From Escherichia coli (GTDB lineage: Bacteria > Pseudomonadota > Gammaproteobacteria > Enterobacterales > Enterobacteriaceae), in assembly GCF_017348835.2 (NCBI RefSeq), contig NZ_CP071375.1: a DNA stretch of 64,000 nucleotides; one strand, 5' to 3'. Within the stretch, counting starts at the first letter, position 1, and every line of letters starts with the position of its first letter. The position numbers were made by a program. Shown here one piece after another: positions 6,001 through 9,000 of the stretch.

Positions 6001-9000
6001 AGCCGCGGCTGGCCCAGTTATTGGCAAGCGCAGGCGGCAGCTTAATCATGTCGCCGATTTCATTCATGGTGTAGCCCTGGTTCGCCAGGTGCAGGGTCTG
6101 GTCGTGAATATACTTGATGGTATCGCGATATTTACCAATATAATCATTGATATGCTTATTGCCCCAGACCGGCCAGGTGTGTGGCATAAACAGCACTTCC
6201 GCGTCGTTACCCCACATATCCAGCGTTTCGTTCAGGTACTCGGTCCACTTGCTGGTATCGCGGGTTTTCGCGCCGCGCAGAGTGTAGAAGTTGTGCAGGG
6301 TATGCGTGGCGTTCTCGGCGGTACACAGGGCTTTCAGGGCCGGAATATAGAAGTGCATTTCGGCTGGCGCTTCGCTACCTGGAGTCATCAGGAAGTCAAA
6401 CTCCAGGCCGTCGATAATCATCTTCTCGCCAGTTCTGACGATAGTTTTAGTCGGTGCAATAATGCTCGGGTCGCCCGTTGCCAGCGTCACGCCAAGGCCA
6501 TTACCCACGTTGCCTTGCGCGTTGTGCGGCAGTAACAGACCGTAAGAGTAGAGCGCACGGCGGCTCATGATGTTACCCGCCAGCACGTTTTCGCTGATGG
6601 CTTCGTCCATAAAGCCAGCAGGGGCAATCACCTGAACTTTGCCGGATTTAACATCGGCTTCAGAGATAATGCCTTTCACGCCACCATAGTGGTCGGTGTG
6701 GCTGTGAGTGTAGATAACGGCAACAATCGGTTTTTGCGGACGATGCTGGAAGTAAAGGTCAAGTGCGGCTTTTGCGGCAGGCGGCGTCACCAGCGGGTCG
6801 ATAACAATAATGCCTTTCTCGCCCTCAACGAACGTAATGTTAGAGATATCCTGGCCGCGCACCTGATACATTTTATCGGTGACTTTGAACAGGCCAGAAA
6901 TACCGTTGATTTGCGACTGACGCCACAGGCTGGGGTTTACGGTTTCCGGCGCTGCGGCATTAATATCAAATTTGTAATCGTCCGCGCGGTAGTAAACTTT
7001 ACCGTTCGCATCACGCAGAATACCTTCATCCAGCAGCGGGGCGATAAATCCACGCTGGGCATCGTCAAAATCCTGACGATCGCTAAACGGTAATGATTTG
7101 GCGTAATTCTGATTAACCTGTTGGGTATATTGAGTGGCGGCTTTCGCTTCCTCTTTCGCGTAAGCGGTATTTACCATCATGCCGCTGACGGCGGTTAACG
7201 CAATAACAATCCGGCTCAAACGGAATAACCGAGAGTTATTCATATAAATCTCCATTTATCATTTATGTCGTAAATATGTAATCCATGCAAAATACGTCAT
7301 TTAAAGCTGGCGTTATCATAATTGGGAAATTGCGACTTTAATAAGTGGAAGTGTGAGCGGAACGCGCCATTTTATTAGGCATTTGTGCTGAAGAGGGAAA
7401 AGTACGCGAATTTATTATCTCTGCAAATAATATGAGGTGTTTTATATATTTATTATATATATTGTACTTCGGCAAATACTGAGCACAATTAATCAATGCA
7501 ACCGGTGTTTTTTATTAAAAAACGTACCGGAGCAATGGGCGGTCATGTCGCTGGCACCGCAGGATTCTGTGTTGCTGTGCCAGCCTTTTATTCATGGTCA
7601 ATGAGTGAGGGGATTGATAAAGAAACCAGGTCGTCAGAGCGCACTGATTATCCGCATTACGCCAGTGAAGTTGCACTGGCTTTTGGTTCACGAGTGGTTG
7701 GCCTCGAACTGGCAAAAATGATTGTGGATGCGTGGCTGGGCGCACAGTACGAAGGTGGTCGTCATCAACAACGCGTGGAGGCGATTACGGCAATAGAGCA
7801 GCGGAGAAATTGAGATTCATCCACTACTTGCATGGATGAGTAATGACTAATGTGGATAGAGTTTCTTTTTGAGGTTGGCTAATGAAACGCTTTCCGCTAT
7901 TTCTTTTATTCACCCTGCTCACGCTGTCCACCGTTCCGGCCCAGGCCGATATTATCGACGACACCATTGGCAATATTCAGCAGGCGATTAACGATGCTTA
8001 TAACCCTGACCGTGGGCGAGACTATGAAGATTCGCACGACGACGGCTGGCAGCGTGAAGTGAGCGACGATCGGCGCAGACAATATGACGACCGCCGCCGC
8101 CAGTTTGAAGATCGTCGCAGGCAACTGGACGATCGCCAGCGCCAGCTTGATCAGGAGCGTCGGCAGCTGGAGGATGAAGAGCGGAGAATGGAAGATGAGT
8201 ATGGGCGATGAGGTAGGCTAGGGTGAGGGGGCCAGCGCGCACATTCCCTCTCATCACGCCACCCCAATCTCCATCCCATCAAACCCGGCTTCAAACCCCG
8301 ACGGCAGTGCGTTTTCCATCAGCCACGCATCAAACTGGTGGCTGATATGGGTCAGAACCACGCGCGGCGAGCGGATAACCTGATTCAGCGCAAGCACGGT
8401 ATTTAAATCACAGTGATTACGCGGTGCATCCTCGCGCGGCGGGTGGCTGCAATCAATCACCATTACCTGCGGCTGATTATTGCGTAAAAATTTCAGCGTT
8501 TTTTCCGGCAAGCCAGCGGTGTCAGACAGCCACGCCACCCGGCTGTGCGCCGTTTCCAGCAGATAACCGAAGGTCAGTTTTGAGTGGTTGAGCGGCAGGG
8601 GCGTGACCTGCAACCCCTGCAAATCAAACACCACAAACGGTTCTACCGTGTGGCTGAAATCAAGCAGGCCCGGATGTTTAAACAGATCGTCGCAGCCCTG
8701 TTCATCCGGCGGGCCGTAAACCGGGATCGTATCGCCCACGCCCCAGCGCAGCGGAAACAGCCCCTGGACGTGATCCATATGGTAGTGCGTCAGCAAAAAC
8801 TGCTGGAACGATCCGGGCGACCAGCGATCGGCGAGATCGTGCAGCCCGGCGTCGATCAGGGTGATCGCCTCGTTAAACTTCACTACGCCGCTGCACGGCT
8901 GGCGGCGATAGTGCGGCGAGCGCCGCGCTCTGGCGCAGGCCGCGCACTCGCAGCCCCATGCCGGAACGCCCTGTGCGCCGCCGGTGCCGGTGAGCGTGAG

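What the first reader, a model, noticed from the sequence alone, without database searches (positions are those of the whole stretch)
7256..7881. als operon, rpiR and most of rpiB are absent: yjcS is joined to yjdP through a short scar with an rpiB remnant
In K-12 the D-allose utilisation genes (alsK, alsE, alsC, alsA, alsB), rpiR and rpiB lie between yjcS and yjdP. Here that space is about 625 bp. The 105-aa ORF in it keeps two RpiB segments but lacks the N-terminus and central active-site region. The strain would lack allose catabolism and the second ribose-5-phosphate isomerase.
Basis: partly seen in the sequence, partly recalled or inferred. Interest (0 to 1): 0.4.

Follow-up and report, generated by a model that had tools for sequence, protein, structure and literature searches.

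The report
Common E. coli allose-operon deletion scar
This E. coli strain carries a widespread, already documented version of the yjcS–yjdP locus in which the D-allose genes and most of rpiB were deleted long ago, leaving a dead rpiB fragment; it is ordinary strain-to-strain variation.

Summary

**What is there**
- The window has 626–638 bp between yjcS and yjdP. K-12 has 7.27 kb there, carrying alsK-E-C-A-B, alsR/rpiR and rpiB.
- The scar proper is 7468–7813. It contains:
  - a 78-bp segment of unknown origin;
  - the hairpin downstream of alsK plus the alsK stop codon;
  - 8 junction bases;
  - rpiB codons about 29–53, fused in frame to codons 107–149.
- RpiB residues 1–28 and 54–106 are missing, including catalytic Cys66 and His99.

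**How common it is**
- The same junctions occur in about 1,570 of 5,426 complete E. coli genomes (29%).
- About 3,400 genomes carry als–rpiB, and 422 carry the O157 OI167 mannose/lyxose island at the same site.
- All nine scar copies I aligned share identical breakpoints, so the deletion happened once.

**Published precedent**
- The reference strains W and EAEC 042 carry this same scar.
- Both are published as als-negative and unable to use allose.

**The 105-aa ORF**
- RefSeq annotates it as an "RpiB/LacA/LacB family sugar-phosphate isomerase". It is most likely a pseudogene remnant.
- Its substitution pattern is near neutral, truncated variants exist, no promoter was found, and a hairpin with a T-run sits inside it.

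Interest is low. The polymorphism is already known; only the fine anatomy is added here.

The parts
5258..7255 (-). yjcS (alkyl sulfatase), the left flanking gene. The RefSeq start is at 7243.
   Evidence: (Pfam Alkyl_sulf_dimr, Alkyl_sulf_C, Lactamase_B).
7256..7467 (.). Normal yjcS upstream intergenic region, shared by als-positive, OI167 and scar alleles. All alleles diverge at its right end (…TATATATTGTAC).
   Evidence: Window 7000-7467 matches K-12 L002 2855-3323 at 96%. O157 matches up to window 7463. Escherichia sp. loci L010 and L069 also match up to 7463.
7468..7545 (.). 78-bp segment found only in the scar allele, origin unknown. It contains a hairpin at 7502-7530 (CCGGTGTTTTTT-ATT-AAAAAACGTACCGG) and the ORF's ATG at 7496.
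   Evidence: No match in K-12, in any als-positive E. coli genome, or in E. whittamii, L012, Kluyvera and other relatives. At most 1-2 places per genome, so it is not a repeat element. Hairpin z = -3.0.
7546..7597 (-). Remnant of the left end of the als cassette: the hairpin downstream of alsK (7550-7584) plus the alsK stop codon and last codon (TCATGG, 7592-7597).
   Evidence: 77% identical to K-12 L002 3325-3376 and 71-74% to E. whittamii and L012. The stem is kept through paired changes (GTTGGC/GCCAAC to GCTGGC/GCCAGC).
7598..7605 (.). 8 unalignable bases (TCAATGAG) at the junction of the ~6.56-kb deletion (K-12 L002 3377-9933).
   Evidence: Gap between the two blastn alignments; sequence.
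7606..7681 (+). rpiB segment 1 (rpiB nt 84-159, about codons 29-53), diverged.
   Evidence: 89% identity to K-12. 8 differences in 76 nt, of which 4 replace an amino acid. Protein alignments.
7676..7685 (+). Junction of the in-frame 159-bp internal rpiB deletion (codons 54-106), at the short direct repeat CTGGCT(G/T)TTG.
   Evidence: The two blastn alignments overlap by 10 nt. CTGGCT lies at rpiB nt 154-159 and 313-318.
7682..7813 (+). rpiB segment 2 (codons 107-149 plus the stop codon at 7811-7813).
   Evidence: 1 difference in 132 nt versus K-12. Pfam PF02502 positions 102-138.
7496..7813 (+). 105-aa ORF, RefSeq WP_001183282.1, annotated 'RpiB/LacA/LacB family sugar-phosphate isomerase'. Most likely a pseudogene remnant.
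7814..7881 (.). Normal spacer upstream of yjdP. The conserved motif AATTGAGATTC, which overlaps the rpiB stop codon, marks the right boundary of the variable cassette.
   Evidence: The motif is present upstream of yjdP in Kluyvera, which has no cassette, and at the end of the O157 island.
7882..8211 (+). yjdP, the right flanking gene.
   Evidence: The Kluyvera homologue matches NCBIfam DDRRRQL_YjdP.

Best explanation
This is a deletion-derived allele of the yjcS–yjdP locus. An ancestor carried the als–alsR–rpiB cassette here.

**Shown: the anatomy.**
- One event removed about 6.56 kb, from just inside the 3' end of alsK to about rpiB codon 28. It left 8 unalignable bases and no evident microhomology, which points to illegitimate recombination.
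- A second event removed 159 bp (rpiB codons 54-106) between two copies of the short direct repeat CTGGCT(G/T)TTG. This is the pattern expected of slippage or short-homology deletion.
- A 78-bp segment of unknown origin lies between the yjcS upstream region and the hairpin downstream of alsK.

**Shown: one origin, many carriers.** All sampled copies have identical junctions, so the deletion arose once. It is now present in about 29% of complete E. coli genomes, including strain W (called phylogroup B1 in PMC3032704) and EAEC 042.

**Inferred: how it spread and diverged.** The allele spread by descent and by homologous recombination through the flanks. Recombination with als-positive strains keeps the flanks, including the last 132 nt of rpiB, at 96–99% identity to K-12. 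The pieces found only in the scar have drifted to 77–89% identity.

**Consequence.** The strain has no D-allose transport or catabolism and no RpiB. This is shown by gene content, and by phenotype in W and 042. Ribose-5-phosphate isomerase activity must then come from RpiA alone, which is an inference. The 105-aa ORF is most likely a non-functional remnant that annotation pipelines call a gene.
For: **Breakpoints.** Mapped against K-12 by blastn and confirmed at protein level.

**Not an empty site.** The scar keeps both ends of the cassette (the alsK hairpin and stop codon, and the rpiB 3' end) plus an internal rpiB piece. A true empty site exists in Kluyvera, where yjcS and yjdP are adjacent. 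E. whittamii and a second divergent Escherichia genome carry the full cassette at this locus.

**Single origin.** Nine scar copies have identical junctions: the window, L004-L009, W and 042.

**Frequency.** 1,567-1,570 of 5,426 genomes carry the scar. 3,413 have als-rpiB and 422 have OI167.

**Drift in scar-only DNA versus the flanks.** Segment 1 has 8 differences in 76 nt versus K-12; segment 2 has 1 in 132 (Fisher p = 6e-4).

**Relaxed constraint on the ORF.**
- 12 replacement versus 7 silent segregating sites.
- Changes occur in the conserved GGRHQQR stretch, and a 70-aa truncated form is seen on 130 contigs.
- Cys66 and His99 are missing.
- No sigma-70-like promoter was found in 7150-7950.
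- A hairpin followed by CTTTTATT lies inside the ORF on the + strand.

**Phenotype.** W and 042 carry this scar and do not use allose.
Against: - The ORF is intact in all nine copies sampled, and its exact product is seen on at least 1,000 contigs. A small expressed protein is therefore not excluded.
- With 19 segregating sites, the neutrality test has little power.
- The 78-bp segment and the 8 junction bases are unexplained.
- Strain 1919D62 (L004) has a K-12-like segment 1, with 1 difference in 76 nt. This requires a short gene-conversion tract and shows the history is not perfectly simple.
- The order and mechanisms of the two deletions are inferred from the junction sequences only.
- Phylogroup distribution was not formally mapped.
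Confidence: 0.9

Rival explanations
1. Assembly artefact: the als genes are really present, and the junction comes from a collapsed or misjoined assembly.
For: None found.
Against: The region is 100% identical to a finished chromosome. The same junction is present in 1,567 complete genomes from many laboratories, including the reference strains W and 042.
Confidence: 0.01
2. Ancestral empty site: this lineage never had the als cassette, and als-positive strains gained it by insertion.
For: Kluyvera has yjcS next to yjdP with no cassette. The cassette therefore probably entered an ancestor of Escherichia at this spot.
Against: The window contains collinear fragments of the cassette itself: the alsK hairpin and stop codon, and two rpiB pieces in their correct order and frame. 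An empty site would contain none of these.
Confidence: 0.02
3. The 105-aa ORF is a functional small protein (a new function, or a modulator built from RpiB pieces), and this explains why it stays open in more than 1,500 genomes.
For: - The ORF is open in all nine sampled copies.
- Both rpiB pieces are joined in frame.
- An internal ATG at 7533 is preceded by GGAG.
- The exact product is seen on at least 1,000 contigs.
Against: - The N-terminal 37 residues are read from non-coding DNA, antisense through the alsK hairpin.
- The catalytic residues and about half of the fold are missing.
- Replacement versus silent polymorphism is 12:7, close to the neutral expectation of about 14.5:4.5.
- A truncated 70-aa form occurs on 130 contigs, with an R-to-S change in the conserved motif.
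- No promoter-like site was found.
- A 318-nt frame staying open for a modest time is not unusual.
Confidence: 0.05
4. The deletion was mediated by a mobile element (an IS or MITE), and the 78-bp segment is its footprint.
For: The 78-bp segment is foreign to every cassette-bearing allele, and it contains a palindrome.
Against: The segment occurs once per genome and only in scar genomes, so it is not a repeated element. It lies next to the yjcS upstream region, 52 bp to the left of the large deletion's junction, not at it. There are no terminal inverted repeats or target duplications around the junctions.
Confidence: 0.05

Closest known systems
als-negative E. coli reference strains W (ATCC 9637) and EAEC 042
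   Same: Both have the same scar with the same 318-bp ORF between yjcS and yjdP. Both were published as lacking the als genes and unable to use allose (PMC3032704; PMC2808357).
   Different: They differ from the window by a few point substitutions: 4-7 differences in the 208-bp scar-only part. The papers describe the operon as completely absent and do not mention the rpiB remnant.
K-12 als regulon: alsR(rpiR)–alsBACEK plus rpiB
   Same: Same chromosomal site and same flanks. The window retains the two extremities of this cassette and one internal rpiB piece.
   Different: About 6.56 kb plus 159 bp are deleted and 78 bp added. No transporter, kinase, epimerase, regulator or active isomerase remains.
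OI167 island of O157:H7 (lmvK/lmvR and the lyxose/mannose utilisation genes)
   Same: It occupies the same yjcS–yjdP interval and has the same left boundary at about window 7463. [quoted passage not shown]
   Different: It is a 9-kb alternative sugar island, found in 422 genomes. None of it is present in the window.

Membership tests
RpiB/LacAB sugar-phosphate isomerase (Pfam PF02502), as a functional enzyme | Significant sequence match to the family profile | tested here: met
   45.8 bits against a 24.7-bit cut-off, but only profile positions 102-138 of 138 are matched. E = 2e-35 against K-12 RpiB.
RpiB/LacAB sugar-phosphate isomerase (Pfam PF02502), as a functional enzyme | Complete domain of about 140 residues, including the N-terminal strand and loop (RpiB residues 1-28) | tested here: not met
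   RpiB 1-28 and 54-106 have no counterpart. ORF residues 1-37 derive from non-coding DNA.
RpiB/LacAB sugar-phosphate isomerase (Pfam PF02502), as a functional enzyme | Catalytic Cys66 and His99 (E. coli numbering) | tested here: not met
   Both lie in the deleted block 54-106. The residues are named in PMC11585597.
D-allose utilisation locus (als regulon) | Presence of alsB, alsA, alsC (transport), alsE, alsK and alsR | tested here: not met
   No alignment to K-12 L002 3377-9933. The scar, als and OI167 alleles add up to no more than the 5,426 genomes surveyed.
Deletion scar / pseudogene remnant | Conserved flanking synteny, with collinear fragments of the lost genes between the flanks | tested here: met
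   Order is yjcS, alsK 3' end, rpiB piece 1, rpiB piece 2, yjdP, as in K-12.
Deletion scar / pseudogene remnant | The same breakpoints in independent genomes (one event) | tested here: met
   Nine aligned copies have identical junctions. 1,570 genomes cover at least 80% of a 236-bp query that spans all the junctions.
Deletion scar / pseudogene remnant | Relaxed selective constraint on the remnant | tested here: inconclusive
   12 replacement versus 7 silent segregating sites, with truncated variants. This is consistent with neutrality, but the sample is small.
Deletion scar / pseudogene remnant | Loss of the encoded phenotype | not testable with these tools
   Not testable for this strain. Strains W and 042, which carry the same scar, are reported allose-negative.

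The most novel reading that the evidence does not exclude
The presence/absence of als at this site could be an old, selectively maintained polymorphism at a cassette-swapping hot spot. At least four alleles share one left boundary: als-rpiB, the scar, OI167, and a larger yjcS|yjdN deletion in a cryptic Escherichia. On this reading the in-frame 105-aa ORF would persist because it is an expressed small protein rather than debris.
Probability: 0.05. Interest if true: 0.4.

Novelty: already known. Interest (0 to 1): 0.1.

Why it matters
There are three practical consequences, none of which opens a new question.

- **Phenotype prediction.** The strain should be unable to grow on D-allose and should depend on RpiA alone for ribose-5-phosphate isomerase activity. 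This matters for metabolic models and for Biolog-type phenotype prediction.
- **Annotation.** RefSeq and other sources name the 105-aa remnant an "RpiB/LacA/LacB family sugar-phosphate isomerase" or "ribose 5-phosphate isomerase B" in well over a thousand genomes. This could wrongly credit these strains with RpiB. The ORF should be flagged as a pseudogene.
- **Locus marker.** The yjcS–yjdP interval has three common, non-co-occurring alleles, which makes it a convenient typing marker.

Tried and rejected
- **RNA families.** An Rfam scan of 7100-8300 at E ≤ 1 found only a chance snoRNA hit inside yjdP.
- **Promoters and terminators.** The scan found no promoter-like sites. It found two weak terminator-like sites, one of which is simply the rpiB deletion junction.
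- **Origin of the 78-bp segment.** I searched K-12 with word size 7, all complete E. coli genomes in distant mode, the O157 island, and the loci from Escherichia, Kluyvera, Salmonella, Citrobacter, Superficieibacter and Pluralibacter. Nothing matched.
- **Microhomology at the 6.56-kb junction.** None was evident, only 8 unalignable bases.
- **Is diverged rpiB segment 1 an import?** No intact E. coli rpiB exceeds about 93% identity to it. It shares 4 of its 8 differences with other Escherichia species. This suggests an old allele but proves nothing.
- **Genus-wide scan.** The YjcS scan returned few Escherichia species, so the order of events in the genus is only sketched.

Full report
**1. The observation**

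The window is E. coli. Positions 7000-8250 are 100% identical to the finished chromosome of strain PE164.

- yjcS lies at 5258..7255(-), an alkyl sulfatase by its Pfam domains.
- yjdP lies at 7882..8211(+), followed by phnP, phnO, phnN and phnM.
- The interval between yjcS and yjdP is 626 bp, or 638 bp from the RefSeq yjcS start.
- It contains one ORF of 105 aa, 7496..7813(+).
- In K-12 MG1655 the same interval is 7,270 bp. It holds alsK, alsE, alsC, alsA, alsB, alsR (rpiR) and rpiB.

The description is therefore accurate.

**2. Anatomy of the scar (blastn against K-12)**

| Window | K-12 counterpart (locus L002) | Identity | What it is |
|---|---|---|---|
| 7000-7467 | 2855-3323 | 96% | yjcS 5' end and its upstream region |
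| 7468-7545 | none | – | 78-bp segment of unknown origin |
| 7546-7597 | 3325-3376 | 77% | hairpin downstream of alsK plus the alsK stop codon |
| 7598-7605 | none | – | 8 unalignable bases (TCAATGAG) |
| 7606-7685 | 9934-10013 | 89% | rpiB nt 84-163 |
| 7676-8223 | 10163-10710 | 98% | rpiB nt 313-450, spacer and yjdP |

Two deletions separate this allele from the K-12 arrangement.

- The first removes about 6.56 kb (L002 3377-9933), from six bases inside the 3' end of alsK to about rpiB codon 28. I saw no microhomology at this junction.
- The second removes 159 bp in frame (rpiB codons 54-106). It lies between two copies of CTGGCT(G/T)TTG, at rpiB nt 154-159 and 313-318.

Protein-level alignments agree. 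ORF residues 38-62 match RpiB 29-53 and residues 63-105 match RpiB 107-149, with E = 2e-35. The same two stretches match the solved structures 1NN4 and 2VVR.

ORF residues 1-37 are read from non-coding DNA. This stretch includes the alsK hairpin read in antisense.

The deleted block contains Cys66 and His99. PMC11585597 names these as the catalytic residues of E. coli RpiB.

**3. A deletion derivative, not an empty site or an artefact**

- The scar keeps both ends of the als–rpiB cassette and an internal rpiB piece, in the right order and frame.
- A true empty site exists in Kluyvera. There yjcS and yjdP are adjacent, and yjdP is preceded by the motif AATTGAGATTCCTCC.
- In E. coli the rpiB stop codon sits inside that motif. 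In O157 the stop codon of the island's last gene does too. This motif therefore marks the right edge of the variable cassette.
- The left edge is at about window 7463-7467 in all alleles.
- E. whittamii, and a second divergent Escherichia genome (locus L012, a record titled E. coli strain SCPM-O-B-8794), carry the whole als–rpiB cassette at this locus at 91-93% identity to K-12. The cassette is therefore old in the genus.

**4. Frequency and origin**

Among 5,426 complete E. coli genomes:

| Allele between yjcS and yjdP | Genomes |
|---|---|
| Scar | 1,567-1,570 (29%) |
| als–rpiB, any match | 3,413 |
| als–rpiB, at least 80% of the query | 3,367 |
| OI167-type island of O157:H7 | 422 |

- The three counts sum to no more than the total.
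- Almost no genome has two copies of rpiB segment 1: 4,983 places in 4,980 records.
- PE164 has a single place matching the rpiB 3' end plus yjdP.
- Scar strains therefore do not carry als or rpiB elsewhere.
- Nine scar copies have identical breakpoints and differ only by point substitutions. They are the window, six spread-sampled genomes, strain W and EAEC 042. This indicates one deletion history.

**5. Divergence pattern**

- Segment 2 of rpiB differs from K-12 at 1 of 132 sites. Segment 1 differs at 8 of 76 (Fisher p = 6e-4). The alsK hairpin region is only 71-77% identical to any cassette-bearing allele.
- My reading is an inference. DNA contiguous with the shared flanks keeps being exchanged with als-positive strains by homologous recombination. 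The scar-only pieces can recombine only with other scars, so they have drifted.
- Four of the eight segment-1 differences match states seen in other Escherichia species. The scar may therefore descend from an old rpiB allele.
- Strain 1919D62 (L004) has K-12-like patches at 7402-7448 and in segment 1, inside an otherwise typical scar. This indicates occasional short conversion tracts.
- Within the scar-only part, the window, W and 042 differ at 2-3.4% of sites. That is less than in the neighbouring yjcS gene, at 3.4-7.3%. The scar is therefore not older than the local flank diversity.

**6. The 105-aa ORF**

RefSeq annotates it as an "RpiB/LacA/LacB family sugar-phosphate isomerase" (WP_001183282.1) without a pseudogene flag. 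The exact product is seen on at least 1,000 contigs, in a cluster of 912 sequence variants. Some sources name it ribose-5-phosphate isomerase B.

Evidence that it is a dead remnant:
- Half the fold and the catalytic residues are missing.
- Segregating sites are 12 replacement to 7 silent among seven distinct alleles. The neutral expectation is about 14.5 to 4.5.
- Substitutions occur in the conserved GGRHQQR stretch, and a 70-aa truncated form is seen on 130 contigs.
- No sigma-70-like promoter lies in 7150-7950.
- The alsK hairpin followed by CTTTTATT lies inside the ORF on the + strand.

I cannot exclude that it is expressed. I put that at about 5%.

**7. Function and literature**

- E. coli W carries this scar. 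It was reported unable to catabolise allose because alsBACEK is absent (PMC3032704).
- EAEC 042 carries it too. It was reported, with Biolog confirmation, to lack the als operon and to be unable to use allose (PMC2808357).
- Those papers call the operon completely absent. The retained rpiB fragment is a small refinement.

**8. Verdict**

This is a common, previously reported presence/absence polymorphism. The points added here are:
- exact breakpoints;
- a single origin;
- a three-allele census of the locus;
- the routine mis-annotation of the remnant as RpiB.

Interest is low.

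Noticed in passing
window 7463-7467 and 7807-7817; loci L003, L010, L069, L016, L017: The yjcS–yjdP interval behaves as a cassette site with fixed edges. At least four alleles share the left edge: als-rpiB, the scar, OI167, and yjcS|yjdN in Escherichia sp. MOD1-EC7003, where als, yjdP and the whole phn operon are missing. Kluyvera has the empty site.
   Followed up: partly
L004 (strain 1919D62), equivalent to window 7402-7448 and 7606-7681: This scar allele has two K-12-like patches, including an rpiB segment 1 that is 97.5% identical to K-12. This suggests short gene-conversion tracts from an als-positive donor. Its yjcS is annotated with an internal stop.
   Followed up: partly
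window 5258-7243 (yjcS) and 8254-9012 (phnP): The flanking genes are unusually diverse between E. coli strains. yjcS differs at 3.4-7.3% of sites and phnP at 4.6-5.7% among the window, W and 042. This is more than in the presumably neutral scar-only segment.
   Followed up: no
window 8212-8253, compared with K-12 L002 10699-10844: K-12 and W have about 100 bp more than the window between yjdP and phnP. The extra DNA is a GGGGAGAGGG/CCCCTC-type palindromic repeat unit. The spacer length varies among strains: 34-42 bp against 146-158 bp.
   Followed up: no
window 7502-7530: A near-perfect palindrome, CCGGTGTTTTTT-ATT-AAAAAACGTACCGG, lies inside the 78-bp scar-only segment (z = -3.0). Its origin and role are unknown. 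Variants in W and 042 change the T-run.
   Followed up: partly
window 7550-7584 and K-12 L002 3329-3363: The hairpin downstream of alsK keeps its stem in the scar through paired substitutions, despite 23% sequence divergence. Its T-run is on the + strand, not on the alsK strand.
   Followed up: no
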